Source of the DNA: Dehalococcoidia bacterium
GTDB lineage: Bacteria; Chloroflexota; Dehalococcoidia; GIF9; AB-539-J10
Length of the DNA: 19,015 nucleotides
Direction: 5' to 3'
Assembly: GCA_030612025.1 (NCBI GenBank)
Contig: JAUWOR010000014.1
Coordinates: 1-19,015 of the forward strand
In this document: piece by piece, positions 2,176 through 19,015 of the stretch
Position numbering within the stretch: position 1 is the first letter of the stretch
Layout of the letters: each line of letters starts with the position of its first letter
Notes under the pieces: generated by a model
Told to the model about the DNA's origin: nothing
Seen by the model: the letters and a program-made list of their open reading frames with translations, nothing else
Databases searched by the model: none
Made by a program: the position numbers and the translations under genes

Positions 2176-3867
2176 TTACATTCTACCATGCCTCAGTATT
2201 GAAATAAGCAGCCAAAAGCCCATTATGCCAGCCCCAAGAAAACCAATTATTCCAATGATAGGTATCCCATTCCACTTAGGTGGGATTCCTGACACAACGA
2301 TAAGAGAAGAGCCGATAACCAAAGAAGCTAAAACAATCGCGAATGCAATGCGATTGCTGATTTGGTCGCCTTTCCTGAGCGAGGGCTCCAGCCCTTTGTG
2401 CTCAAACTCTATCTTGAATTGTCCAACCTTGATTTGCTCAATTATATCCCTTATTTCTGAGGGAAGGTCACGAAGCAAAAGACTGAGTTCCGTAGCTGCC
2501 AAATATGTATCCTTTGCCAATCTGCGAGGACTTAGACGAGCTTTTAACAATTTTTGGGCAAACGGCTCCATATGTTTCACCATATTAAAATCCGGGTCCA
2601 ATACCCTACCTACACCCTCAATGCTCACCAAGGCTTTTACCAGCAAGTAAAGATTAGGTGGCATTTTCAGTTTGTAACCAACAAACAACTTAATCACTTC
2701 GTTCAACAATTGGCCCATATTTATGTCTTTTAGTGGTAAATAAGAATACTGGTCTACCAATTCACCTACTTGATATTCCAGTTGGTCAATGTTCTCAATA
2801 CGCCTGCTGTTTGATAATTGTAGGAAAGTTTTTGTTATTCTTTTTGCGTCTCTGTTAACTATTCCAACGATAATACTGCTGAGATATTCTCCGTGCTTAG
2901 GTAACAGCCTCCCCATCATACCGAAATCAATAAAGCAGATAATATTGTTATCCAACACCAGGATATTGCCGGCGTGAGGGTCAGCGTGAAAAAAACCATG
3001 TTCAAACACCTGCTTAAGAACAAGATCAGTCCCCCAGCTTGCAATAGTTTTAGGGTCATTCCCCGATTTTAACAATGCATCAATATTAGAGACTTTGATG
3101 CCATCAATAAATTCCATTGTGAGAATTTTTCTTGTAGTATAGTTTCTATAAACTTTTGGCACGTGGATAGTCTGAACTCTCCGAAAATTGCTGCCAAAAC
3201 GTTCAATGTGTGTGGCCTCAATAGTGAAGTCTATTTCCTTTCTGATACTGCGCTCAAATTCGTTAACTATGCCCACAGGATTTAATATATCCATCCCCTG
3301 CAGGTGTTTTTCCATCAGTGTAGCAAGATGAAGCATTATCTCTAGGTCAACTTCAATAATCTGTTCTATCCTTGGACGTTGAACTTTGACGACGACTTTT
3401 TCTCCACCCTGGAGTACGGCTTCATGGACTTGTGCTATTGAGGCTGAAGCAATAGGAGTATCCGTGAATTCATTGAAAAGTCCGGATATAGGTTTACCGA
3501 GTTCCTGTTCAACTGATCGCTTCGCTTCTTCCCCCGAAAAAGGAGGCACAGAATCCTGAAGTTTCTCAAGCTCAACAATAAGTTCGTGAGGCAATAGATC
3601 AGGCCTGCTACTCATTATCTGGCCAGCTTTTACAAAAGTCGGACCAAGTTCCTCCAGCACTATTCTCATCCGTTCCCAGCGGGAAAAAGATGCAATCTCC
3701 TTACCTCCTTTCCTTAGGAGGACTTTCTTACCAAGATCAACGTATTTCTCTAAATGAGTCCTAGTTATCAGATCTCCAAAACCGTACTTAACCAATACAA
3801 CAATTATTTCTCTGTAACGGTTAATGTGACGATATGAATGAGTTATCACCCGAACTCTACGAATCAT
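2176..3867 (-). CDS. ABC1/AarF/UbiB-family atypical protein kinase with C-terminal TM helices
   Basis: Motifs LGPTFVKAGQ, ASASIAQVH, VVKVQRP, FFHADPHAGN and IDFGMMG, plus two hydrophobic C-terminal helices. Confidence 0.93.
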   Translation of the reverse strand: MIRRVRVITHSYRHINRYREIIVVLVKYGFGDLITRTHLEKYVDLGKKVLLRKGGKEIASFSRWERMRIVLEELGPTFVKAGQIMSSRPDLLPHELIVELEKLQDSVPPFSGEEAKRSVEQELGKPISGLFNEFTDTPIASASIAQVHEAVLQGGEKVVVKVQRPRIEQIIEVDLEIMLHLATLMEKHLQGMDILNPVGIVNEFERSIRKEIDFTIEATHIERFGSNFRRVQTIHVPKVYRNYTTRKILTMEFIDGIKVSNIDALLKSGNDPKTIASWGTDLVLKQVFEHGFFHADPHAGNILVLDNNIICFIDFGMMGRLLPKHGEYLSSIIVGIVNRDAKRITKTFLQLSNSRRIENIDQLEYQVGELVDQYSYLPLKDINMGQLLNEVIKLFVGYKLKMPPNLYLLVKALVSIEGVGRVLDPDFNMVKHMEPFAQKLLKARLSPRRLAKDTYLAATELSLLLRDLPSEIRDIIEQIKVGQFKIEFEHKGLEPSLRKGDQISNRIAFAIVLASLVIGSSLIVVSGIPPKWNGIPIIGIIGFLGAGIMGFWLLISILRHGRM

Positions 3868-3899
3868 TCTTTTGCCATACGATAGCGTTTAATAGGGAA

Positions 3900-3908
3900 A
3901 GTATACCA
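3900..3908 (-). promoter_or_regulatory. Extended -10 element upstream of the ABC1 kinase gene
   Basis: Minus strand TGGTATACT about 33 nt upstream of ATG 3867. Confidence 0.4.
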
Positions 3909-4219
3909 TGTGAAGAGAACCGCTTCATGCATTAGAAAGAGAAAGGGGCAAAAGTTAAGCGAACAAGTGACTGAACTTCATACAAGAATGGCAAACTGAA
4001 AGGTATGCTCACTAAGGAGCAGGCAACAAATCGCCTTCTGTAAATGCTTATTAAATGATGCGCCGCAAAAGCCAACACCGACTAGAGAAGGTAAGTAGAA
4101 AGACTGGCAAATCTCTAAACTAGTTATACTACAGGAAGGCTAAAAACTTCCCCAAGCCTGCAGCACTGTAAGAAGACTTCTGGACCACGGGAACCAGACC
4201 ATTCGCAGTATACTTATTG

Positions 4220-4531
4220 TCAGGAACTGCTACCCCTCTTTTCCCTCAACTTTTCCAGTTCTTCTACACGACTTTCGAGTTTCTGCAAATCCTGACGTGA
4301 TGGAATATCCAGTTTCCCTAAAGCGCTCTTCACAACTTTATCAATTCGAGTTTCCAGATTTCGTTTGGCCTCCTCTGATTGGTTCAGCAGGTCTTTAGCT
4401 AACTTTCTACCCTCTTCCTCAGTGAGGTTGCTCTCTTCGCTAATTTTTTTCGCCACCTCCTCAATCTTATCCTTTGTCATATAGGCAAGGCCAATTCCTG
4501 TTAAAACCGTTTTTCTGAGTAAATCTACCAT
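4220..4531 (-). CDS. Phasin-like (polyhydroxyalkanoate-regulator-like) coiled-coil protein, a common upstream partner of ABC1 kinases
   Basis: Start reassigned to ATG 4531 after GGAGGAG. Sequence LRKTVLTGIGLAYMTKDKIEE...LTEEEGRKL...LDIPSRQDLQKLESRVEELE fits the family. Confidence 0.8.
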   Translation of the reverse strand: MVDLLRKTVLTGIGLAYMTKDKIEEVAKKISEESNLTEEEGRKLAKDLLNQSEEAKRNLETRIDKVVKSALGKLDIPSRQDLQKLESRVEELEKLREKRGSSS

Positions 4532-4582
4532 AACATCTCCTCCTTTGATTTTCATAAACCCTTTCTTAGTCTATCAAACATC

Positions 4583-4610
4583 ATTATAGCAAGAATATTT
4601 CAGATTGCAA
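4583..4610 (-). promoter_or_regulatory. Sigma70-type promoter of the phasin-like gene
   Basis: Minus strand TTGCAA-N16-TATAAT, with the extended TG (TGCTATAAT). Confidence 0.6.
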
Positions 4611-4723
4611 AGAACAGCCTCTAAATGAGAATCCCTATTCTCTCCTGCTTACAAACATCTTGGCATCATATGGACGCATGTCTTCCCAGAAGAGCTAGGT
4701 GTCCGCTGATTCAACCCCCTCCT

Positions 4724-5314
4724 CTAGCTCTCAATAATCTCTTTGGTGCTGGGAACTCTACCAATAATTCGCTCATCAATATGGGTGGCCGAATCCAGGG
4801 CTCGGGCTAGAGCTTTAAATAATGCTTCAGCCTTGTGATGGTCGTTGACGCCGGTGAGCACTTTGGCATGAAGGTTAATTCTAGCCTCGGAGGCAAAGGA
4901 AACAAGGAAATGACGGATTAAATCAGCTTCCAAATCACCTATGTTAGCCTCGCTGAAGGATACTTCTGTCACATTGTAAGTTCTCCCCCCTACATCCACT
5001 GCTACTGCTGCCAGAGCTTCATCCATGGGCACGATAGCATGTGCCATTCGGGTAATGCCTCGCTTTTCTCCTATTGCTTGATTCAAGGCTTTACCCATCG
5101 CAATAGCTACATCCTCGACTACATGGTGCTGGTCGGCACCTGTGGCTGAGAGTTTTATGTCAAATACTCCATGCTGAGCTAGTTGAGCCAGAAGATGGTC
5201 AAACATCCTTACGCCTGTAGTTATCTCGAATTGCCCACTGCCATCAACATTCAGCTCCACCCTGACATTCGTTTCCGCAGTTTCACGAGTTACTGTTGCT
5301 TTTCTTTCAGGCAT
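4724..5314 (-). CDS. hisB: Imidazoleglycerol-phosphate dehydratase
   Basis: RETAET, MFDHLL, DQHHVVED, NDHHKAEALFKA and VPSTK motifs. AGGAGG SD; last gene of the his operon. Confidence 0.97.
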   Translation of the reverse strand: MPERKATVTRETAETNVRVELNVDGSGQFEITTGVRMFDHLLAQLAQHGVFDIKLSATGADQHHVVEDVAIAMGKALNQAIGEKRGITRMAHAIVPMDEALAAVAVDVGGRTYNVTEVSFSEANIGDLEADLIRHFLVSFASEARINLHAKVLTGVNDHHKAEALFKALARALDSATHIDERIIGRVPSTKEIIES

Positions 5315-5332
5315 GGTTCAATTCCTCCTTTA

Positions 5333-5367
5333 GAGATTGCTTCGTCGCTTTGCTCCTCGCAATGACA
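5333..5367. repeat. TGTCA-tagged REP-like element, subtype A (intergenic, hisC-hisB)
   Basis: GAGATTGCTTCGTCGCTTTGCTCCTCGCAATGACA; 33/34 nt identical to 8858-8891. Confidence 0.85.
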
Positions 5368-5408
5368 AAGAGGGTAAGCGCACAATGACAAGAAGACATA
5401 TTGCTACC

Positions 5409-6587
5409 TTAACACATTCCTTTTAATGCCTCAATTAAGGCATCGGTGTCCTCAGGTTTACCCACGCTTATTCGCAGATAATTTCTTAATCGTGGGCTAT
5501 CAAAATAGCGGACAAAGATGCCTCTTTTTTGCAACAAACGCCAAATCTCTTTAGCCAGAGATTCTTCGCCGAGCTTACCCTGAGCGAGATTCTTCGGTCG
5601 CTGTCCCTTCCTCTTCACTTCTTTCAGAGTCAGGGCTTCGGCTAACCCCTCAGAATGACAATGTAAGGAGCAGAGGATAAAATTAGCACTGGAAGGATAG
5701 GGTTTTAGCCATTCTAGCTCTTTTAGTTTATTAAAAAGCCGTTCCCGTTCAGCAACTATTTTTGCTACATTGCCACGAAGATACTCTATATCTGACAGAG
5801 AAGCTAAGGCGGCTGCCTGTGCTGCGACATTAACATTATATGGTTGCTTAATCTTCATAAGGTAGCTGGCAATTTCAGTAGGGAAGATACCATAGCCTAT
5901 TCTTAAACCGGCTAGCCCGGCCCATTTGCTGAATGTACGCAGCACTATCAAGTTGGAATAGTTAGGCACTAAATTAGCCATAGTGACATTGCTAAACTCA
6001 AAGTAAGCTTCATCCACCATCACAATTTTCCCAGTGTTGACAAGTTCCATTATCTCCTGCTCAGTAATAATGTTGCCCGTAGGATTATTAGGTGAAGCAA
6101 CAGAGATAACCTTAGTCTTTTTATCCAATACACTCTTAATGCCAGCTAAATCGATAGCAAAATCTCCACCTCTAGGTACATCAACCACTTTACCACCACA
6201 CACCTCAGTACTAAAGGGATACATACCAAATGTTGGTGGACAATTGATAACCTTATCGCCAGGTTTAAGGAAAAGCCTCAGAACAAGATCAATTAGTTCA
6301 TCACTGCCGCTGCCACAAACAATGTGCTCACGATTTGAGCCGGTATATTTCTCTAAGGCTTGTCTAAGCCTTCTTTGTTCCGGGTCGGGGTAGATATAAT
6401 AGTAAGGGTAGTTAGCTAAAGCTTGATAGACTTTGGGGGAGCAACCGTAAGGATTCTCATTGCCATCGAGTTTAATTATCCTTTCTACAGATAATTCAGC
6501 CCGCTGGCTCAAAATATCCATTGGCTCAATAGGAGTGTAGCTTTTCATAGTTATCAATTCAGGCCTGATTAGTTCTTTCATATCCAT
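5409..6587 (-). CDS. hisC: Histidinol-phosphate aminotransferase with an in-frame ~34-codon repeat-derived insertion
   Basis: KLDGNENPYG, GSGSDELI, SPNNPTG, VDEAYFEF, LRTFSKWAGLAGLRIGY (PLP Lys) and LRISVG. Likely start is ATG 6587 or 6581 rather than 6623. Confidence 0.95.
   Translation of the reverse strand: MDMKELIRPELITMKSYTPIEPMDILSQRAELSVERIIKLDGNENPYGCSPKVYQALANYPYYYIYPDPEQRRLRQALEKYTGSNREHIVCGSGSDELIDLVLRLFLKPGDKVINCPPTFGMYPFSTEVCGGKVVDVPRGGDFAIDLAGIKSVLDKKTKVISVASPNNPTGNIITEQEIMELVNTGKIVMVDEAYFEFSNVTMANLVPNYSNLIVLRTFSKWAGLAGLRIGYGIFPTEIASYLMKIKQPYNVNVAAQAAALASLSDIEYLRGNVAKIVAERERLFNKLKELEWLKPYPSSANFILCSLHCHSEGLAEALTLKEVKRKGQRPKNLAQGKLGEESLAKEIWRLLQKRGIFVRYFDSPRLRNYLRISVGKPEDTDALIEALKGMC
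5558..5660. repeat. Composite REP-like element, subtype B, inserted in-frame inside hisC
   Basis: Two GAGATTCTTCG copies (5558-5568, 5586-5596), ACCCTGAGCG (5577-5586) and CTCAGAATGACA (5649-5660). These blocks are reverse complements of parts of the intergenic element at 16553-16617. Confidence 0.8.
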
Positions 6588-6607
6588 TTCAACTAAAACC
6601 AAATGGT

Positions 6608-6696
6608 AAAAATAAAAAATCAAAAGGACAACTCAAAATGTAAAACTTTTTATTTTTGCTCTGTATTTTTGCCTTTTGCATTTTAATCTTTTATTT
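6608..6696. repeat. AT-rich imperfect inverted repeat with ~7-nt periodic A/T tracts (hisD-hisC spacer)
   Basis: Left arm AAAAATAAAAAATCAAAAGGACAACTCAAAATGTAAAA faces right arm TTTTTATTTTTGCTCTGTATTTTTGCCTTTTGCATTTTAATCTTTTATTT. Confidence 0.6.
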
Positions 6697-6749
6697 AGCT
6701 CTCGTCCTTTTTCGTAGAGAGGCATCTCCCATTAAGGGAGAGCAAAATA

Positions 6750-8084
6750 TTACTTAAGATTTCCTTGCACTCTTATCCTTCTTTCTATTGCTTGAGCGTG
6801 GGCATCCAACCCCTCAGCTTTAGCTATTACCATGGCTGCTTGGCTTAGTTCTCGCATAGTCGCCTTGTCTAGAGCGACAATATTGGTAATTTTTAGGAAA
6901 TCCTCAACACCTAAAGAGGAGCTAAAGCGAGCACTGCCTTGGGTAGGCAATACATGTGATGGACCAGCAATATAATCCCCTAAAACCACTGGTGAATCTT
7001 CTCCAATAAAAATACAGCCCGCATTATGAATCTTGGGCATTATGGAGGAGGCATCAGATACCATGAGAGAAAGATGCTCTGGAGCATAAAGGTTGACCAG
7101 TTCGATAGCCTCATCAAAGTTATTGACCAATATAATCATTCCTCTATCAATAGCCTGGGTAGCGATAGAGCGGCGTTTCAGCTTCCCTAATTGCGCTACC
7201 ACCTCTCCATCAACTTGATTAGCCAGACCAGACGAAGTAGTAATCAAAATCGCCTGCGCTAAAGGGTCATGCTCAGCTTGAGCTAGAAGGTCAGCGGCGC
7301 AAAGTGAAGGGTTAGCTGTCTCATCAGCCACAATCACTATCTCGCTTGGTCCTTGAAGTCCATCAATAGCCACTGTGCCATAGACCATTTTCTTAGCCAA
7401 GGTCACAAAGATATTGCCGGGGCCACAGATTTTGTCCACTTTGGGTATTGACTCAGTCCCGAAAGCTAAAGCAGCGATAGCTTGAGCCCCGCCAACTTTG
7501 AAAATACGATCGGCCTTCGCAATATCAGCCGCTACCAATGTAGGTGCCGGGATGCTGCCATTTTTACCAGGTGGCGAAGCCACGATAATCTCCCTGACCC
7601 CAGCTATCTTAGCTGGTATGGCTGTCATTAGCACCGTAGATGGATAGGTGGCGGTACCACCTGGAATATATAAACCCACTCTATCTAGTGGCTGGACTTG
7701 CCTTGCTAAATATTGGTTAACAAATACAGTGCCACTCTTACAGGCACAAGCAAGATGGAAATCTCGTATTCTCTTAGCTGCTAATTCAAGTGCTGAGACA
7801 AGTCCCTTGCCTACTATATCGTAGGCTGCTGAAATTTCTTGCTTGCCTACCTCTAAGGAATCAAGTTCGACAGCATCTAACTTTTTAGCGTAATGGAAAA
7901 GAGCTTCATCACCTTTATCACGAACGTCACCAATGATACGTTCCACTACTTCTTTGGGGGAAAGTTCTTCTCCAAAGACGTGCTTTATTTGTGTTGCCAC
8001 TTGCGGCGAGACAATGAAAGATTCCAGAAAAGTTTTTCTGGTCAGCAATTGTCTTGCCTTATTAAATCCTTTGACTCTTATCAT
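6750..8084 (-). CDS. hisD: Histidinol dehydrogenase
   Basis: VGLYIPGG, YPSTVLM, GGAQAIAALAFGTESIPKVDKICGPGN, GPSEI, QAEHD, APEHL and GDYIAGPSHVLPT. Confidence 0.97.
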   Translation of the reverse strand: MIRVKGFNKARQLLTRKTFLESFIVSPQVATQIKHVFGEELSPKEVVERIIGDVRDKGDEALFHYAKKLDAVELDSLEVGKQEISAAYDIVGKGLVSALELAAKRIRDFHLACACKSGTVFVNQYLARQVQPLDRVGLYIPGGTATYPSTVLMTAIPAKIAGVREIIVASPPGKNGSIPAPTLVAADIAKADRIFKVGGAQAIAALAFGTESIPKVDKICGPGNIFVTLAKKMVYGTVAIDGLQGPSEIVIVADETANPSLCAADLLAQAEHDPLAQAILITTSSGLANQVDGEVVAQLGKLKRRSIATQAIDRGMIILVNNFDEAIELVNLYAPEHLSLMVSDASSIMPKIHNAGCIFIGEDSPVVLGDYIAGPSHVLPTQGSARFSSSLGVEDFLKITNIVALDKATMRELSQAAMVIAKAEGLDAHAQAIERRIRVQGNLK

Positions 8085-8165: not shown

Positions 8166-9593
8166 TCATGAGAGCCCTCTGCGTAATGTTTGAATAACAA
8201 ATTCAATCCCCTCCTTTTTACCAGGGAAGTCAAGGCTGCCTTTGTTTCCGATTAGACAGGCAGTGGATTTGAAAAGCACAGCGATAACTTTTAAGTCATG
8301 TTGCGCCAGTGTTTTCCCAGTTTGGGTATTGTCAATGAGCAAATCGGCATCCTCGGGCAGGAAAACTTCACTCGCCCCCCAAGTTGGGATTACCTTGTAT
8401 GGGTTGATATAGTTATCTCGAAGATACTTATCCGCGATGTTCACGTACTCTGAAGCTACTCTTAATAGAGTAAGTTTACCACTTTGAATAAGCGATCTTA
8501 AGTCAGCAACGTCGGTTATAGGCATATCTTGACTCACTGCAGCCACAATTTTAACCATACCAAAGCCCAGATCAAGCAACTCCTTCACTGGGCTTGAGGG
8601 GAAACGATAGAGGTGCTCCAGCAACCAATCCTTACCGGTTATGGCTAAATCGAAATTGCCATTAGCCACTTGAAGAGGCATATCCTGAGGTCTGATTACC
8701 TTAATGCCAAGCCAATCTAAATCGGAAGAGGGGCGACGGTTCAATACTTCCTCTGTATACCCCTGAATATTAAGTCCAGCTCGTTTCAAAAACTGCGCCG
8801 TAGGTAGTTGCTGATGTCCGTCAGGCAAAGCTAGCTTGATTTCCTTCGCTTGCCAATGAGATTGCTTCGTCGCTTCGCTCCTCGCAATGACCTTACTAGG
8901 GCTTGTAACAACATTATTCCGGCTTGCAATAACATTGCTAAAACAACTCAATATCTGGCTCAGATCTTTATTCTCTAAGCTTTCTCGGTTAGCGATTAGA
9001 AAGGCTGTGACCGGGAGTAACTTCATTAAGGGAACCAAACTTTGCTCCTTTATCTCATTTTCATTCCTTGCCCACAGTATTGCCAGATCAGCGCTATCTG
9101 GAGGATAAACTTCAGCAGCTCCCCATACCGGGAAAATCTTAAAGGCCTTCATCCTGAGATTTAAGGCAAAAGCTTGAGCTAAATTAGGATACTCGCTTAC
9201 TATGCGCCAGTTATTCCGCTTGGCTAACAATCCGTCAAGATTGGATATCCCTGCTTGGTAGCTGGCCACCGCATATACACCACCTTCACCGTAATTTAGA
9301 CTTGATATTTTTACTAAGGCGCTCGCTGGATACCTCGCCAAAAGTTCCTCAACCCAATCCAAGCTACATATTCCCAAGTCATAATTGCCTATGGCTACTT
9401 GTATGGGAATATCTTTCTCCTGAAATACCTTGGCCGAAAGCCAAGAGAACCTTCTCGATTGAAGGCGATATCTCCTCGTCTTATTGCTGTAGCCTTTAAT
9501 GCCCATCTCTACCCCTTTAAGCAAGTTAGCTGTAGACAGTAAGAACCTACCTTTAGGCAAGGCGAGTTTGATATGGCACGGTTGGTATTCCAC
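8166..9593 (-). CDS. hisG: ATP phosphoribosyltransferase made of two short-form HisG domains fused in tandem
   Basis: Two homologous halves: IKLALPKGR..KDIPIQVAIGNYDLGI..SEYPN..PVWGAAEV and IKLALPDGH..QDMPLQVANGNFDLAI..SEYVN..PTWGASEV..DNTQTG. GTG start, directly downstream of hisZ. Confidence 0.93.
   Translation of the reverse strand: MEYQPCHIKLALPKGRFLLSTANLLKGVEMGIKGYSNKTRRYRLQSRRFSWLSAKVFQEKDIPIQVAIGNYDLGICSLDWVEELLARYPASALVKISSLNYGEGGVYAVASYQAGISNLDGLLAKRNNWRIVSEYPNLAQAFALNLRMKAFKIFPVWGAAEVYPPDSADLAILWARNENEIKEQSLVPLMKLLPVTAFLIANRESLENKDLSQILSCFSNVIASRNNVVTSPSKVIARSEATKQSHWQAKEIKLALPDGHQQLPTAQFLKRAGLNIQGYTEEVLNRRPSSDLDWLGIKVIRPQDMPLQVANGNFDLAITGKDWLLEHLYRFPSSPVKELLDLGFGMVKIVAAVSQDMPITDVADLRSLIQSGKLTLLRVASEYVNIADKYLRDNYINPYKVIPTWGASEVFLPEDADLLIDNTQTGKTLAQHDLKVIAVLFKSTACLIGNKGSLDFPGKKEGIEFVIQTLRRGLS
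8858..8891. repeat. REP-like element, subtype A, in-frame in the hisG inter-domain linker (encodes VIARSEATKQS)
   Basis: GAGATTGCTTCGTCGCTTCGCTCCTCGCAATGAC; one mismatch to the intergenic copy at 5333-5366. Confidence 0.88.
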
Positions 9594-10893: not shown

Positions 10894-10926
10894 TGATAAA
10901 TTTGAGGTCGTTTAACCATACCTACC

Positions 10927-10972
10927 TGTCATTCTGAGCGTAGCGAATAATCTCATACCGCTCAGGGTGACA
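10927..10972. repeat. REP-like palindromic element, subtype B (between the divergent hisZ and nfeD promoters)
   Basis: TGTCATTCTGAGCG-TAGCGAATAATCTCATAC-CGCTCAGGGTGACA; the 14-nt ends are identical to those of 16553-16617. Confidence 0.85.
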
Positions 10973-10990
10973 AAATAAATACCCTAAAAT

Positions 10991-14610: not shown

Positions 14611-15282
14611 ATGCCAGAAGTAGCTTACCTTATTCGCCCTATGGTGGACGAGGATATTCCCCAGGTAACTGAGATTGACCGTGAGGCTTTCCCTGGCGAG
14701 TCACTGTTTCGTCCCTACACTTCATACAAGCAGGAGATTCACAACTCATTAGCTCATTACATAGTAGCTTGTATTGAGAAGGGGACTGGACCAAAACCAA
14801 ACCGGGAAGATAGGCAAAAGAAGTCCTGGCTCAAACGCCTTTTGGGCCATCACCATTTAGCTATTAGCACGAGTGCGGAACGAAACCACCGCTATAGTAA
14901 AGAATACATAGTTGGCTTCGCTGGCTTCTGGACTATGCTAAATGAGGCACACATCATCGCTATTGCGGTAAGAAATAATTATCGCTGCAAGGGAATAGGC
15001 GCAGGACTGCTCATTTCAGTTATTGAGGTGGCTAGCCAATTACATGCCAATGTAATCACCTTAGAAGTGCGTGCTTCTAATGTGGTAGCACAGGCACTTT
15101 ATAAGAAATATGGATTTCGAATAGCGGGCAAGCGCCCAAGGTATTATTCAGATAACGGCGAAGACGCTGTGTTTATGAGCACAGATACTATTACTTTGGC
15201 CCCCTTCCAAGCTCACTTCCAGCGACTGAAAGAAGCTCATAGCCAGAGGTGGAAAAAAATCTTCACAACTCAATTAGCTTGA
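14611..15282 (+). CDS. rimI: RimI-like ribosomal-protein N-acetyltransferase (GNAT) with an internal insertion and C-terminal extension
   Basis: IRPM..EDIPQV.EIDREAF, IVGFAGFW..NEAHIIAIAV...YRCKGIG, TLEVRASN..AQALYKKYGF and RPRYYSDNGEDA. Confidence 0.9.
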   Translation: MPEVAYLIRPMVDEDIPQVTEIDREAFPGESLFRPYTSYKQEIHNSLAHYIVACIEKGTGPKPNREDRQKKSWLKRLLGHHHLAISTSAERNHRYSKEYIVGFAGFWTMLNEAHIIAIAVRNNYRCKGIGAGLLISVIEVASQLHANVITLEVRASNVVAQALYKKYGFRIAGKRPRYYSDNGEDAVFMSTDTITLAPFQAHFQRLKEAHSQRWKKIFTTQLA

Positions 15283-15361
15283 ATCGAAATAGGTTGCTAA
15301 ATTCTGCTCCCCTGCTTTACGACTCTACTAATGACATCTGAATCTTCGCAGCCGTCTTATG

Positions 15362-16519
15362 TCAACTATACTTGCTCAGGATAGCCTTGAAGGAATCTAT
15401 GACAAAAACTAGCTGTTCTTTATCAGCGGCAAAGGTAGAAAGTTTAAAAGCTTTTGTCAGACCTGGCTGCAGCCCCCAAATGCCTCTGCCCTTAAGCTCC
15501 TTGTACAGGAAATATCCCCTCTCTCGAACACGCTTGGAGATGTCATAGAGCATCGGAGATTCAAAGTGCAGTAAGTCATGTCTATGCGGTCTTTCCCCCA
15601 ATTGCTTGAATCCCAATTTCTCCAGTTCACCGGAAAACCATTGTGCTTTTGCTACTTGCTCATCCCAATGGTTAATCCTTTCTTTCACCTGGGGGAAGGA
15701 AGCCATGAGCGTAATCAGTGGGACACCCCTCAAAGTACAACCGAGAGGCTCAACTTCTTTGTTATCAAATAGTTCGGATTTCCTCAATATAATTTCTTCC
15801 CACCTCTTTTTCATTCCCAATACACCGCAAGGCCCGGCAGAAGCCATGCTTTTATGACCGCTGCCAATGATGAAATCAGCACCAACATCACTCAACTTTA
15901 CAGGCATTCTGCCCACTGCATATGCACCATTAAGGATATAAGGGATACCATATTCTTGAGCAATTTTCCCCAGCTTTGTGGCATCAGGAAGATTTCCATA
16001 ATTGCCATCGGGGTAGGTTAATAAAATTAGCTTCGGATTATGCTTCTCCATAAGTGGTATATAATCGTTAACGTCAATCCTGAATTCTGGATAGCCAGAG
16101 TGAGACACCTCAATTACATCTAACCCTACCCTTTCAGCAGCAACAATCGTGGTGTAATGCCTGTTACCATCAACAATAATTGAATCACCTGGCTTGGTTA
16201 AAGAATGCATCACCATAAATATGCCATCTCTTGCTCCATATGTTATGGTGGCAACATCACAGCCTAAGAATTGGGGTAGAAGTTCATGCACAAACTCCCG
16301 GATAGGAGGATTTGTTATATCACACAGGCTGCCAAGGCAAAAATCGCACACTGAATACCCATCTCCAAACTCTATTAAAGCCTCCCTAGCAGCATCAGTG
16401 AGAATGCCACCCGTTTGTAGAGGCATGATATTTATAAGACCTTTGTGTAATCTGTGTAATGCACCAAGTTTCTGTAATGGTTTGTTCTTTGCTTGCTTCG
16501 CCAGCTTTTCCTTTTGCAA
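15362..16519 (-). CDS. pscS: Sep-tRNA:Cys-tRNA synthase (SepCysS, PLP-dependent)
   Basis: PLQTGG.LT..AREALIEFGDGYSVCDFC (CxxC), HYTT, PDGNYGN, GSGHKS (PLP Lys), LGCT (third Cys) and GLTK..KLSTF. TTG start with GAGGGGTGA SD. Confidence 0.95.
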   Translation of the reverse strand: MQKEKLAKQAKNKPLQKLGALHRLHKGLINIMPLQTGGILTDAAREALIEFGDGYSVCDFCLGSLCDITNPPIREFVHELLPQFLGCDVATITYGARDGIFMVMHSLTKPGDSIIVDGNRHYTTIVAAERVGLDVIEVSHSGYPEFRIDVNDYIPLMEKHNPKLILLTYPDGNYGNLPDATKLGKIAQEYGIPYILNGAYAVGRMPVKLSDVGADFIIGSGHKSMASAGPCGVLGMKKRWEEIILRKSELFDNKEVEPLGCTLRGVPLITLMASFPQVKERINHWDEQVAKAQWFSGELEKLGFKQLGERPHRHDLLHFESPMLYDISKRVRERGYFLYKELKGRGIWGLQPGLTKAFKLSTFAADKEQLVFVIDSFKAILSKYS

Positions 16520-16552
16520 CAGTTCACCCCTCGTTCAAAATTCTTTGCCCTC

Positions 16553-16617
16553 TGTCATTCTGAGCGTAGCGAAGAATCTCCGAGGTTTTTAGACCCTTCG
16601 CTTCGCTCAGGGTGACA
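16553..16617. repeat. Full-length REP-like palindromic element, subtype B, between sepS and pscS
   Basis: TGTCATTCTGAGCGTAGCGAAGAATCT...AGACCCTTCGCTTCGCTCAGGGTGACA forms a long imperfect hairpin. Confidence 0.88.
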
Positions 16618-16625
16618 AAAGGAAG

Positions 16626-18143
16626 CTAACACTCTCTTATGGGCTGCGCCTTTATGGTTACAAATACAGCACCACTAACCCCTATCTTCTTCTGCTGCCC
16701 TTCGATATACTCCCGTATAGCTTCTGGAATTTGCAGATTGAGGTCAGAGAGATGCTTTATTGTTTTCACCTGGTAGGTTAAGCTTTCGTCGCTGCTTTCT
16801 ATTAAAGCTGCTGCTCCCATTGCTATAGCACGCATGTAATTTATGCCTGTGTATGTTCCTGAGGGGATAACATCGCTATAAATGTTGCCATTGGCTACGC
16901 AAATCTCGTTAAAACCAGCAGGGCCAATCAGCCTCTTGCCTGCTTCTTTTTCCACGACTTTTACCTGTATGGAGTCATCCTCCCAGGCCAAAAATTCACA
17001 TGGGGCAATCTCATCTTTACACTTTTGGGCCGTTTCCTCGATTGCCTTGGCTATCTTTTTCCCTCTGGCAGTCTTGGGACTTGTTATATAGGTAATGGCC
17101 CCGGCTATATCGTCATCCGCATATTCAGCTACAGAAAATTGAGGATATGCCAGTTTCCTCATATCATCTACTTCGTATAGAATCATCGCTAGTCGCTCAA
17201 TTCCCAAGCCAGCATTAAATACCGGATACCTAATGTCAAAGTTCGCCAAGGATATTGGAGAGTACATGCCAATATCAGCAACTTCAAGCCAATCCCCTTT
17301 GTAGTTAATGAAAACCTCTTGCTCCTGGCCGGGCGCATAATACTTAGATGTTGCTGTCTTTGTCTCAAATTTGATATCTACAAAGCCATATTGCTGTATG
17401 ATGTCTTTGGTTATTTCCCTCCCGGCATCCAAGGACACTTCGGGGGCCATCACTACGACCGATGCTGAATGATGAACACGTAGATGGTGAGCATCTTCCC
17501 TTTGCTCATTGCGATATCGAGGCCCTACCGAAAATAAGGCCAGTGGAAATTCAGCTTTGTCCTGCAACGCTGCTAAAGTGTGAAACCATGTAGCTGTCAT
17601 ATGGCTTCTTAGAGTCTTATTAGAAGGTAACGGTCGTAGCTTTCTTAGCTCAGGAAAAACCTTGTCTAGAAGCCCTGTAGCTTGTTTATCAGTGATATCC
17701 AGTCCAGCAATGAGTTCCTCAATGAGGTTATCGGCCTCGATTTCCCCCTTCTTATACCTTCTAAGAATTGACCTCAATTTCTCAGTTTCAATTTCTCCTG
17801 CTATCTCCTTTATTTGAGCTATTTTTTGGGCGCTCAACCCAATCTCAGGGCGAGGTAATTCAGCCAAATAAAAAACTCTGTCAAGGATAACTCGAGCCTC
17901 TGGGCCATACTGTTTAGAGACATCGTAATCGGGCAAAATTGTAGGATTCTCAACTTCATCAAAGCCAAGATTTAACAGGATTTCCCTCGATTGTTGAATC
18001 AATTGGCGCACAAGATGAGGTTTCCCTTTCCTTTCTAGAGAGATTTTGGTACCCTTTGGAATAAGTTTTCCTGTTGATACCCAAGCCTCGGTAAAATTCT
18101 TTTTTGCTTGCGACTTTATTTCGTTTAAATCAAACCTTGCCAT
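16626..18143 (-). CDS. sepS: O-phosphoseryl-tRNA(Cys) synthetase (SepRS, class II)
   Basis: GKPHLV, QYGPEA..ILDRVFYLA.LPRP, TLRSHMT..WF, EQRED..HL..HSAS, SKYY, GMYSP.SLA, VFNAGLGIERLAMIL and EKE...LIGPA. Adjacent to pscS. Confidence 0.95.
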   Translation of the reverse strand: MARFDLNEIKSQAKKNFTEAWVSTGKLIPKGTKISLERKGKPHLVRQLIQQSREILLNLGFDEVENPTILPDYDVSKQYGPEARVILDRVFYLAELPRPEIGLSAQKIAQIKEIAGEIETEKLRSILRRYKKGEIEADNLIEELIAGLDITDKQATGLLDKVFPELRKLRPLPSNKTLRSHMTATWFHTLAALQDKAEFPLALFSVGPRYRNEQREDAHHLRVHHSASVVVMAPEVSLDAGREITKDIIQQYGFVDIKFETKTATSKYYAPGQEQEVFINYKGDWLEVADIGMYSPISLANFDIRYPVFNAGLGIERLAMILYEVDDMRKLAYPQFSVAEYADDDIAGAITYITSPKTARGKKIAKAIEETAQKCKDEIAPCEFLAWEDDSIQVKVVEKEAGKRLIGPAGFNEICVANGNIYSDVIPSGTYTGINYMRAIAMGAAALIESSDESLTYQVKTIKHLSDLNLQIPEAIREYIEGQQKKIGVSGAVFVTIKAQPIREC

Positions 18144-18160
18144 GTTCAGGCTTCCACTTT

Positions 18161-18190
18161 ACTATAAATACTATCCCTTATTGTTTGCAA
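18161..18190 (-). promoter_or_regulatory. Possible sigma70 promoter for sepS-pscS
   Basis: Minus strand TTGCAA-N18-TATAGT, 17 nt upstream of the sepS ATG. Confidence 0.4.
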
Positions 18191-18221
18191 CCAACCGGAC
18201 TTTGCTTCTCCCTAACTAGAA

Positions 18222-18737
18222 CTAGCCCTTTTTCAGCTTGCTGATGCATTGTACTAGGTATTGCCTCAATATACTTAACGCTGCCTCGGTAACCTCTCTC
18301 TTGTTTTCCTCTCGATTTCCCCGAAAGATATATTTTTGGCTCAGGCTACCGTCTTTAGCTGCTATGCCAATGTGAAATAGCCCCACAGGTTTCTCAGAGC
18401 TACCACCTGAAGGTCCAGCGATCCCAGTATTAGAAACACATATATCTACATCTAATAGCCTTCTACCACCTTCAGTCATCTCTATGGCTGTTTGCGAACT
18501 AACCGCCCCATAATTTTCTATAGTTTCCTTTCTCACTCCGAGAACATTGATTTTTACCTCATTGCTATATGCTACCAAAGAGCCTTTAAAATAGTCGGAA
18601 CTACCGGGCACGTTGGTTAACCTATCAGCTATCCTGCCACCAGTAGCTGACTCGGCTGTACCAATGGTAACTAACTTTCCTGTTCTGGCTTGGCATTCTT
18701 TTATCAGGTCTGCAATCTCTATTTCCGGTTTTTTCAT
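18222..18737 (-). CDS. pncC: CinA C-terminal domain protein / nicotinamide mononucleotide deamidase
   Basis: TAESATGG, VPGSSDYF.G..VAYSNEVK, GAVS, TGIAGPSGG..EKPVG and F.GNRE. Confidence 0.9.
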   Translation of the reverse strand: MKKPEIEIADLIKECQARTGKLVTIGTAESATGGRIADRLTNVPGSSDYFKGSLVAYSNEVKINVLGVRKETIENYGAVSSQTAIEMTEGGRRLLDVDICVSNTGIAGPSGGSSEKPVGLFHIGIAAKDGSLSQKYIFRGNREENKREVTEAALSILRQYLVQCISKLKKG

Positions 18738-18804
18738 ATGCCACCTACTACTTAAGAACCTTGGCTTATTTTAACACAGTTACACAATAGAGCCTGAGTT
18801 TTCC

Positions 18805-18813
18805 TGCTATAAT
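18805..18813 (+). promoter_or_regulatory. Extended -10 promoter of the MBL-fold gene
   Basis: TGCTATAAT, 11 nt upstream of ATG 18825; no SD. Confidence 0.55.
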
Positions 18814-18824
18814 TTGGCCTACAA

Positions 18825-19015
18825 ATGGCTGAATTATCTGATGTGATAACTTTTCTTGGCACTGCCGGCGCTAGATTTGTAGTTACCCGCCAATTTCTAG
18901 CTTCCGGCGGTGCCTGGCTTAGCCTTGGCAACACTCAAATACTTCTCGATCCCGGCCCTGGCAGTTTAGTTCAAGCTGCTAAGAGAAAACTTGACCCCTC
19001 TAAGCTAGAAGCTAT
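18825..19015 (+). CDS. Metallo-beta-lactamase-fold hydrolase, N-terminal part (runs off the window; not in the ORF track)
   Basis: Manual translation MAELSDVITFLGTAGARFVVTRQFLASGGAWLSLGNTQILLDPGPGSLVQAAKRKLDPSKLEA. ITFLGT.G and LDPGPG are typical MBL N-terminal motifs; the HxHxDH motif would lie just past the edge. Confidence 0.82.
   Translation, partial: MAELSDVITFLGTAGARFVVTRQFLASGGAWLSLGNTQILLDPGPGSLVQAAKRKLDPSKLEA

What the first reader, a model, noticed from the sequence alone, without database searches (positions are those of the whole stretch)
15362..18143. Intact archaeal-type tRNA-dependent cysteine system (SepRS + SepCysS) in a bacterial chromosome
Seen: adjacent co-oriented sepS and pscS. 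SepCysS keeps CxxC, the PLP Lys and the third Cys. SepRS keeps the phosphoserine-binding SHMT, HSAS and Asn (VFNAG) positions and the ExE anticodon-contact motif. The flanks are bacterial (sigma70 promoters, SD sites, hisZ operon), and a host-type repeat sits between the two genes, so the pair looks long-resident rather than a contaminant. Established: Sep-tRNA(Cys) to Cys-tRNA(Cys) conversion is the methanogen/Archaeoglobus route and has been reported in only a few uncultured bacterial lineages, including Chloroflexi, so it is rare but not wholly new. Inference: acquired horizontally from archaea and used for Cys-tRNA formation or cysteine synthesis in a sulfidic anaerobe. No SepCysE scaffold gene or tRNA-Cys is in the window.
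Basis: partly seen in the sequence, partly recalled or inferred. Interest (0 to 1): 0.8.

Follow-up and report, generated by a model that had tools for sequence, protein, structure and literature searches.

The report
Known bacterial SepRS-SepCysS cysteine operon
Two neighbouring genes in this uncultured Dehalococcoidia bacterium encode the "archaeal" two-step route that builds cysteine directly on its tRNA; the route was already described and tested for this bacterial group in 2017, but here it seems to be the cell's only way to charge cysteine tRNA.

Summary
ORF 16626-18143(-) is an O-phosphoseryl-tRNA synthetase and ORF 15362-16519(-) a Sep-tRNA:Cys-tRNA synthase. Both score above NCBIfam's curated cut-offs and keep all catalytic residues.

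The host is a Dehalococcoidia bacterium, not an archaeal contaminant. The block cinA-sepS-pscS-rimI-pyrD recurs in 74 related loci. A genome-wide hairpin repeat sits between the two genes. Contigs from three other runs bridge both outer junctions.

This operon was published and assayed in vitro for Chloroflexi by Mukai et al. 2017 (PMC5424206). This scan also met it before in at least four other Dehalococcoidia genomes. It is therefore a new member of a known kind.

- The 95.6%-complete genome has no cysS, so the pair looks like the sole route to Cys-tRNA.
- Among 301 sampled genomes of the class, SepRS occurs in one family only.
- In that family, 65 of 119 genomes have SepRS only, 22 have both enzymes and 23 have CysRS only.
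- One relative carries cysS in the very slot of sepS-pscS, and another keeps a decayed sepS-pscS relic.

I found none of these additions in the main texts I searched.

The parts
16626..18143 (-). sepS, O-phosphoseryl-tRNA(Cys) synthetase (SepRS), 505 aa
   Evidence: TIGR00470 scores 461.6 bits against a cut-off of 380.65, covering model positions 3-531 of 533. It aligns end to end with A. fulgidus SepRS 2du3 at 387 bits. It is 61-98% identical to proteins at 74 Dehalococcoidia loci.
15362..16519 (-). [quoted passage not shown]
   Evidence: TIGR02539 scores 521.3 bits against a cut-off of 365.25. It matches A. fulgidus SepCysS 2e7i at 471 bits, with the CxxC pair, the PLP lysine and the third Cys aligned. 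The start region was read.
16520..16625 (.). Intergenic copy of a genome-wide inverted (hairpin) repeat, inserted between the two genes
   Evidence: Copies lie on many contigs. The core has 30 matches on 14 of 19 contigs against 0 in a shuffle, and the predicted RNA hairpin is -44.3 kcal/mol. The insertion is shared with the 98%-identical relative L017. It is absent in L018 and L021, where the genes overlap or abut. A depth spike appears at this place in metagenome contigs.
18222..18737 (-). cinA/pncC-type gene, the conserved co-oriented upstream neighbour (context only; no functional link shown)
   Evidence: PF02464 CinA at 173.5 bits. It lies upstream on the same strand in 63 of 74 related loci.
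14611..15282 (+). rimI-type acetyltransferase, the convergent downstream neighbour that bounds the slot (context only)
   Evidence: TIGR01575 rimI at 109.2 bits against a cut-off of 86.4. It lies downstream on the opposite strand in 57 of 67 loci that hold both genes.

Best explanation
The pair is a working member of the bacterial (Dehalococcoidia) SepRS-SepCysS operon. SepRS loads O-phosphoserine onto the genome's single tRNA-Cys (GCA anticodon, A37, U73). The phosphoserine is made by the serA gene and the class-V aminotransferase gene next to it. SepCysS, a PLP enzyme with three conserved cysteines, then replaces the phosphate with sulfur to give Cys-tRNA(Cys). No cysteinyl-tRNA synthetase gene is detectable, so this is most likely the cell's only way to charge tRNA-Cys. 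Shown here: gene identity, conserved residues, genomic context, and cysS not found. Inferred: activity, by analogy with the Chloroflexi enzymes assayed in 2017, the sulfur donor, and true absence of cysS.
For: - Family scores are above the curated cut-offs, and both proteins align over their full length with solved archaeal enzymes.
- The Asn-X-Gly motif (NAG), the SHMT and SAS positions and the Glu-x-Glu anticodon pair are kept.
- The 8-residue gap that removes the Ile444 (m1G37) motif fits the A37 tRNA-Cys. Mukai 2017 describes this gap for bacterial SepRS.
- cysS was not found in the genome. The best TIGR00435 hit is 22.8 bits against a cut-off of 340. tblastn with three Dehalococcoidia CysRS proteins gave at most 44 bits.
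- cysS was found in 0 of 4 other genomes of the genus.
- In the family, 65 of 119 genomes have SepRS without CysRS. Among high-quality genomes the figure is 25 of 41 (my tally of the rows).
- The two systems are interchangeable. G014 has cinA-cysS-rimI-pyrD, with cysS in the same slot. G083, which has CysRS, keeps a truncated, frameshifted sepS-pscS relic.
- Phosphoserine supply is encoded: serA scores 464 bits and has a class-V aminotransferase gene directly upstream.
- Chloroflexi SepRS and SepCysS were active in vitro (PMC5424206, passages read).
Against: - There is no biochemical or expression evidence for these exact proteins.
- The genome is 95.6% complete in 19 contigs, so absence of cysS is not proven. 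A clean flank-to-flank deletion test failed because synteny around cysS is not kept.
- A CysK-type cysteine synthase is present, at 344.3 bits against a subfamily cut-off of 344.15. The pair therefore need not be the only route to cysteine itself.
- Pfam's SepRS_C domain (PF18006) was not detected at E <= 0.001.
- A -44 kcal/mol hairpin now separates genes that overlap or abut in relatives, with unknown effect on pscS expression.
- 'SepRS-only' and 'both' calls in draft metagenome genomes can be distorted by incompleteness and contamination.
Confidence: 0.85

Rival explanations
1. The pair is functional but redundant. A canonical CysRS exists in the unassembled 4% of the genome, and SepRS-SepCysS serves mainly for cysteine synthesis, as in organisms that hold both routes.
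For: 22 of 119 family genomes do hold both enzymes (my tally). The genome is a 19-contig draft. Cysteine auxotrophy of transsulfursome mutants in organisms with both routes is cited in PMC8762117.
Against: cysS was not found by HMM or by tblastn. It was also not found in any of the 4 other genomes of the genus. 25 of 41 high-quality family genomes have SepRS without CysRS. The 'both' state is concentrated in two other genera, g10 and g16.
Confidence: 0.1
2. The contig is an archaeal contaminant or a chimeric join wrongly binned with a bacterial genome.
For: The window is a whole short contig of 19 kb. The nearest large protein clusters for SepRS are archaeal.
Against: The same gene order recurs at 74 Dehalococcoidia loci, some on contigs of 250-750 kb. 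The host's dispersed repeat lies between the genes and again at 10926-10975. GC content is even along the window. Contigs of runs X3, X5 and X9, from three studies, bridge both the pscS/rimI and the sepS/cinA junctions. The gene beyond cinA in relatives matches the end of contig C16.
Confidence: 0.01
3. The SepRS homologue is a repurposed SepRS-like or PheRS-like enzyme with another amino-acid specificity.
For: Degenerate SepRS-like proteins exist in Thermoplasmata and putative Deltaproteobacteria (PMC8762117). Pfam sees only the class II core.
Against: The Asn-X-Gly motif that is altered in those SepRS-like proteins is intact here as NAG. pheS scores 92.3 bits against a cut-off of 237.45. In a 48-row tree the 43 SepRS-type rows split from 5 PheRS-like rows with 100% SH-aLRT support. 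The gene is coupled to a canonical SepCysS.
Confidence: 0.02

Closest known systems
Chloroflexi/Dehalococcoidia SepRS-SepCysS operon (Mukai et al. 2017, mBio, PMC5424206; for example Chloroflexi bacterium RBG_13_51_36)
   Same: The gene order is sepS then pscS. SepRS is 77% identical to the RBG_13_51_36 locus L044. The m1G37-recognition motif is lost. SepCysS lacks the loop at A. fulgidus residues 144-147 and has no insertion at 234/235. All three Cys are kept. The methanogen-type homocysteine genes co-occur: HcyBio plus a NIL-ferredoxin.
   Different: Here a dispersed hairpin repeat separates the two genes by 106 bp. The genome has no cysS and no PylS. The paper's main text, in the passages I read, does not discuss CysRS loss in these bacteria.
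Archaeoglobus fulgidus SepRS (PDB 2du3) and SepCysS1 (PDB 2e7i/2e7j)
   Same: Both align over their full length, at 387 and 471 bits. The Sep pocket, the Glu418/Glu420 equivalents, the PLP Lys209 equivalent and the three Cys are conserved.
   Different: The bacterial SepRS has an 8-residue deletion that covers Ile444 and the helix behind it. The bacterial SepCysS has a 4-residue deletion at 144-147. The host tRNA-Cys has A37 rather than m1G37.
Methanocaldococcus jannaschii transsulfursome (SepRS-SepCysE-SepCysS; PDB 5x6b, 5x6c, 3wkr)
   Same: It carries out the same two catalytic steps. SepRS and SepCysS match these chains at 358 and 397 bits.
   Different: No SepCysE or SepCysSn gene is seen at the locus. 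The SepCysS N-terminal extension is only 22 residues before the conserved core, against about 48 in the M. jannaschii chain. According to Mukai 2017, SepCysE is known only from class I methanogens and a few other archaea.
'Ca. Parcubacteria' DG_74_2 SepRS-SepCysS operon (Mukai et al. 2017)
   Same: It is a bacterial operon for the same pathway, and it also lacks dependence on m1G37.
   Different: The Parcubacteria SepCysS lacks two of the three conserved Cys. The protein here keeps all three.

Membership tests
SepRS (O-phosphoserine--tRNA ligase, TIGR00470) | Whole-protein score above the curated equivalog cut-off, over the full length of the model | tested here: met
   461.6 bits against 380.65, covering model positions 3-531 of 533.
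SepRS (O-phosphoserine--tRNA ligase, TIGR00470) | Phosphoserine pocket: the Thr of SHMT, the two Ser of SAS, and the Asn-X-Gly motif | tested here: met
   All are present and aligned with 2du3. Asn-X-Gly is named as a SepRS motif in PMC8762117. The roles of the other residues are recalled, not taken from a call.
SepRS (O-phosphoserine--tRNA ligase, TIGR00470) | Glu-x-Glu pair that reads the GCA anticodon (A. fulgidus Glu418/Glu420) | tested here: met
   VVEKE aligns with VVEEE of 2du3. The 2du5 chain differs at exactly these two positions. The role of the residues is recalled.
SepRS (O-phosphoserine--tRNA ligase, TIGR00470) | Attaches O-phosphoserine to tRNA-Cys | not testable with these tools
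   Shown in vitro for another Chloroflexi SepRS (PMC5424206), not for this protein.
SepCysS (TIGR02539) | Whole-protein score above the curated equivalog cut-off | tested here: met
   521.3 bits against 365.25. It is the only such gene in the genome.
SepCysS (TIGR02539) | PLP-binding lysine and three conserved cysteines | tested here: met
   GHK aligns with Lys209. CDFC and LGCT align with the A. fulgidus cysteines.
Bacterial (Chloroflexi) SepRS-SepCysS operon lineage of Mukai et al. 2017 | sepS directly followed by co-oriented pscS | tested here: met
   Seen in the window. 67 of 74 related loci show it, and the other 7 end at a contig edge.
Bacterial (Chloroflexi) SepRS-SepCysS operon lineage of Mukai et al. 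2017 | SepRS lacks the m1G37-recognition motif (Ile444 and the helix behind it), and the host tRNA-Cys has A37 | tested here: met
   An 8-residue gap with Asp following it. This is the shortest loop among 43 SepRS-type rows. tRNA-Cys has A37 and U73.
Bacterial (Chloroflexi) SepRS-SepCysS operon lineage of Mukai et al. 2017 | SepCysS of clade I type: no loop at A. fulgidus 144-147 and no 8-residue insertion at 234/235 | tested here: met
   There is a 4-residue gap at that loop and an ungapped alignment across 210-312.
SepCysE-dependent transsulfursome (class I methanogens) | A SepCysE scaffold gene, or a SepCysSn/SepCysSN N-terminal module | not testable with these tools
   I knew of no family model to search with. 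At the locus there is no extra ORF between or beside the genes, and only a 22-residue N-terminal extension. Genes inserted between sepS and pscS in relatives are unrelated: cation efflux and DUF3147-like.
PheRS alpha subunit (TIGR00468) | Score above the pheS cut-off | tested here: not met
   92.3 bits against 237.45. The real pheS lies elsewhere, at C8:106817-107266.

The most novel reading that the evidence does not exclude
In this one Dehalococcoidia family the acquired SepRS-SepCysS pair has displaced CysRS as the only route to Cys-tRNA in most members, this genome included. CysRS has since displaced it back at least twice. One case is in the very same chromosomal slot (G014). The other left a decayed relic (G083). 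That would make the family a living bacterial example of reversible non-orthologous displacement of an aminoacyl-tRNA synthetase, all on an unchanged tRNA-Cys.
Probability: 0.7. Interest if true: 0.5.

Novelty: new member of a known kind. Interest (0 to 1): 0.32.

Why it matters
The system itself is known, so the locus alone adds one more example. The family context is more useful. It holds free-living bacteria that appear to depend wholly on tRNA-dependent cysteine formation. Their close relatives have both routes, or have gone back to CysRS. This gives a natural series for three questions: why one route wins, whether the pathway works without SepCysE, and how a bacterial A37 tRNA-Cys serves both enzymes. 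It also matters for annotation. A 'missing' cysS in these genomes is not an assembly gap.

Tried and rejected
- **Promoter and terminator scan of 15200-19015.** It found 9 sigma-70-like sites against 6.7 +/- 2.4 in shuffles, and no intrinsic terminator. It says nothing about the host or the operon.
- **Rfam, gathering thresholds, whole window.** No match, so no T-box or riboswitch is seen.
- **PylS in the genome.** None was over the cut-off. The best hit is SepRS itself at 28.5 bits, so the SepRS/PylRS co-occurrence reported for some Dehalococcoides-like lineages does not apply here.
- **serB.** No hit was over the cut-off. I draw no conclusion from this.
- **Clean-deletion test for cysS.** The genes that flank cysS in the 'both' genomes G072 and G076 lie 80 kb apart on contig C4 of this genome, so the test is uninformative.
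- **Ancestral position of cysS.** In 4 of 4 outgroup cysS loci and 5 of 5 outgroup pyrD loci, neither cinA nor cysS lies at the rimI-pyrD slot. The G014 layout is therefore not the ancestral state of the order.
- **RNA evidence.** No RNA holder is listed. Run X20, labelled RNA-Seq, is flagged by the tool as probably DNA.
- **The sepS-pscS spacer.** It is not bridged by any listed contig piece, and contigs break at the repeat. Adjacency of the two genes therefore rests on the assembly itself and on related loci.
- **Taxon-labelled SepRS phylogeny.** The tree therefore shows only that the protein sits inside SepRS, next to its own 50% cluster (P0003), and far from PheRS-like rows.
- **Atlas structure search.** Not run by the tool, because it holds no model.
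- **Variable-loop differences in tRNA-Cys.** They differ between SepRS carriers and CysRS-only genomes, but G024, G071 and G083 break the pattern. I read this as phylogenetic signal, not as identity elements.
- **Label error.** L090 was labelled 'noSep' by my coverage filter, but it does hold a partial sepS at its contig start.
Full report
**What is there.** The window is the whole of contig C9 of a 1.40-Mb, 19-contig genome that is 95.6% complete with 1.7% contamination.
- The first, 16626-18143, scores 461.6 bits on NCBIfam's sepS equivalog (cut-off 380.65), against 92.3 bits on pheS (cut-off 237.45).
- The second, 15362-16519, scores 521.3 bits on the SepCysS equivalog (cut-off 365.25), against 41.7 bits on SufS.
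- Each is the only gene of its kind in the genome.

**Residues.**
- SepRS aligns from residue 3 to 500 with A. fulgidus SepRS (2du3, 387 bits). The SHMT, SAS and N-A-G positions are kept. VVEKE lies on the Glu418-x-Glu420 pair, which are the two positions at which the 2du5 chain differs.
- An 8-residue gap removes Ile444 and the residues behind it, with Asp following. This is the trait Mukai et al. 2017 report for bacterial SepRS, which does not read m1G37. Among 43 SepRS-type representatives, this protein and its own cluster have the shortest loop at that place.
- SepCysS aligns with A. fulgidus SepCysS1 (2e7i, 471 bits). It keeps CDFC, the PLP lysine and the third Cys. It shows the 4-residue gap at 144-147 and has no insertion at 234/235. 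These are again the published bacterial traits.
- The catalytic roles of the SepRS pocket residues are recalled from the structural literature, not taken from a call. The Asn-X-Gly motif is named in PMC8762117.

**Host and integrity of the contig.**
- The neighbours are bacterial housekeeping genes: CinA/PncC, RimI, bacterial-type PyrD, a Band7/NfeD pair, HisZ, HisG, HisD, an aminotransferase and IGPD.
- A scan of one genome per species found 74 loci encoding a SepRS 61-98% identical. All are titled Dehalococcoidia, Dehalococcoidales, Chloroflexi or Chloroflexota, and some lie on contigs of 250-750 kb.
- In 67 of the 74, pscS follows sepS on the same strand. The other 7 end at a contig edge. 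cinA precedes sepS in 63 of 74, and rimI follows on the opposite strand in 57 of 67.
- The 106-bp spacer holds a hairpin repeat. Its 24-nt core has 30 matches on 14 of 19 contigs, against 0 in a shuffle, and a second copy lies at 10926-10975.
- The insertion is shared with the 98% relative L017. It is absent in L018 and L021, where the genes overlap or abut.
- Contigs of three runs from three studies bridge the pscS/rimI junction (records 13, 22, 31) and the sepS/cinA junction (records 16, 24, 32).
- The stretch is held by cold-seep, marine-sediment, subsurface and vent-sediment metagenomes from six studies, by the tool's count.

**Role in this genome.**
- No cysS was found. The best TIGR00435 hit is 22.8 bits against a cut-off of 340. 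tblastn with three Dehalococcoidia CysRS proteins gives at most 44 bits.
- There is one tRNA-Cys among 47 tRNA genes, with GCA anticodon, A37 and U73.
- Phosphoserine supply is encoded by serA (464 bits) with a class-V aminotransferase gene directly upstream.
- cysE was not found. A CysK-type synthase is present at the subfamily cut-off, so cysteine itself may also be made off the tRNA.
- No IscS-, NifS- or SufS-type enzyme appeared among the class-V aminotransferase hits.
- The methanogen-type homocysteine pair is present: HcyBio at 509.6 bits plus a NIL-ferredoxin. Mukai 2017 notes the same for SepRS-bearing Chloroflexi.

**Distribution.**
- In 301 genomes sampled across the class, SepRS over the cut-off occurs in 8, all in family f1. 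It occurs in 0 of 292 genomes from 77 other families.
- In four other families of the order, 0 of 16 genomes have SepRS and 16 of 16 have CysRS.
- In family f1 (119 genomes, E <= 1e-20), 87 have SepRS and 45 have CysRS. My tally of the rows gives 65 SepRS-only, 22 both, 23 CysRS-only and 9 neither.
- Among the 41 genomes at least 90% complete and at most 5% contaminated, the tally is 25, 11, 4 and 1.
- In the window's own genus, 0 of 4 other genomes show cysS.

**Interchange of the two routes.**
- In G014 (87% complete, no sepS found) the layout is cinA-cysS-rimI-pyrD-band7-nfeD. cysS starts 27 bp after cinA, in exactly the slot of sepS-pscS.
- Of the 45 CysRS-bearing family genomes, G014 is the only one with cysS beside cinA.
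- In a tree of PyrD+Band7+NfeD (18 rows, 985 columns, rooted on two outgroup families), G014 falls among SepRS bearers with 0.82 support. The deeper SepRS-bearing clades branch outside it. A secondary replacement of sepS-pscS by cysS is thus the most economical reading.
- In G083 (95% complete, CysRS present, no SepRS hit), a relic lies downstream of cinA. SepRS residues 4-72 run into SepCysS residues 158-284 with a frameshift.
- tRNA-Cys keeps GCA, A37 and U73 in all 25 sequences from 23 genomes, whichever enzyme is present.

**Comparison with what is known.**
- Mukai et al. 2017 (abstract and passages read) reported SepRS-SepCysS operons in Chloroflexi, 'probably Dehalococcoides'. They named RBG_13_51_36 (here L044, 77% identical) and showed that a Chloroflexi SepRS and SepCysS work in vitro and in E. 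coli.
- The 2022 survey (PMC8762117; passages read) extends the bacterial clades.
- Three literature searches found no other paper that links SepRS or CysRS with Dehalococcoidia or Chloroflexi in this sense. In the passages I read, neither paper's main text discusses loss of CysRS in these bacteria. Their supplements were closed and may bear on this.
- Earlier notes of this scan record the same operon in at least four other Dehalococcoidia genomes, one of them alongside CysRS. All were judged ordinary.

**Phylogeny.** The representative library holds 80 relatives at E <= 1e-30. The protein's own 50% cluster is 80% identical, and the next ones are 43-48% identical. In a 48-row tree, the SepRS-type rows split from PheRS-like rows with 100% support, and the window groups with its own cluster at 99%. 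Taxon labels could not be obtained. 'From archaea' therefore rests on the one-family distribution, on archaeal nearest clusters and on the literature.

**Verdict.** This is a real, intact and long-resident member of a known and biochemically validated bacterial operon. The added points give it modest extra interest but do not make it a new kind of system. They are sole-route status in this genome, restriction to one family, the mosaic of three states, the in-slot cysS swap and the relic.

Noticed in passing
window 8166-9593 (-): The 'hisG' ORF is 475 aa long and holds two HisG domains in tandem, at 74 and 129 bits. The double form is conserved at 61% and 55% identity in L056 and in the outgroup locus L129. 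In the window, the linker between the domains contains an in-frame copy of a dispersed repeat (8858-8891), which translates as VIARSEATKQSH.
   Followed up: partly
window 5333-5367, 8858-8891, 10926-10975, 16552-16620: There are two related kinds of short GC-rich hairpin repeat, with cores of the GTCATTGCGAGG... and GTCATTCTGAGCG... types. In metagenome contigs their depth is 10-20 times that of the flanks, and hundreds of unrelated contigs end there. The motif therefore seems to be shared by many organisms in these sediments. Its nature is unexplained.
   Followed up: partly
L117 (G014:C22) 3209-6836: This relative has cysS in the exact slot of sepS-pscS, giving cinA-cysS-rimI-pyrD. It is the only such case among the 45 CysRS-bearing genomes of the family.
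   Followed up: yes
L161 (G083:C67) 7103-7622: A decayed relic of the operon in a CysRS-bearing relative. The first ~72 codons of sepS are fused to the middle of pscS, with a frameshift and a truncated end.
   Followed up: partly
L123 (G072:C52) 3471-6521; L124 (G076:C42) 15358-18406: In two genomes that hold both routes, cysS lies 10-14 kb from sepS, in a small cluster with a second CysK-like gene that is 42-43% identical to this genome's CysK-type gene.
   Followed up: no
L034, L038, L039 (7.5-12.8 kb); L082, L085, L124: In some relatives unrelated genes are inserted between sepS and pscS. These are a cation-efflux transporter, a SpoIIM-like gene, and a 110-aa membrane-like ORF with a faint DUF3147 hit. 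The pair is therefore not always contiguous.
   Followed up: partly
G000 whole genome; C4:21794-23500: No IscS-, NifS- or SufS-type cysteine desulfurase and no cysE were found. A methanogen-type HcyBio plus NIL-ferredoxin pair is present. Together these suggest sulfide-based rather than cysteine-based sulfur trafficking.
   Followed up: partly
window end (18738-19015) and G000 C16:21725-22441: The gene that follows cinA in relatives matches the very end of contig C16, so C9 and C16 are probably neighbours on the chromosome.
   Followed up: no
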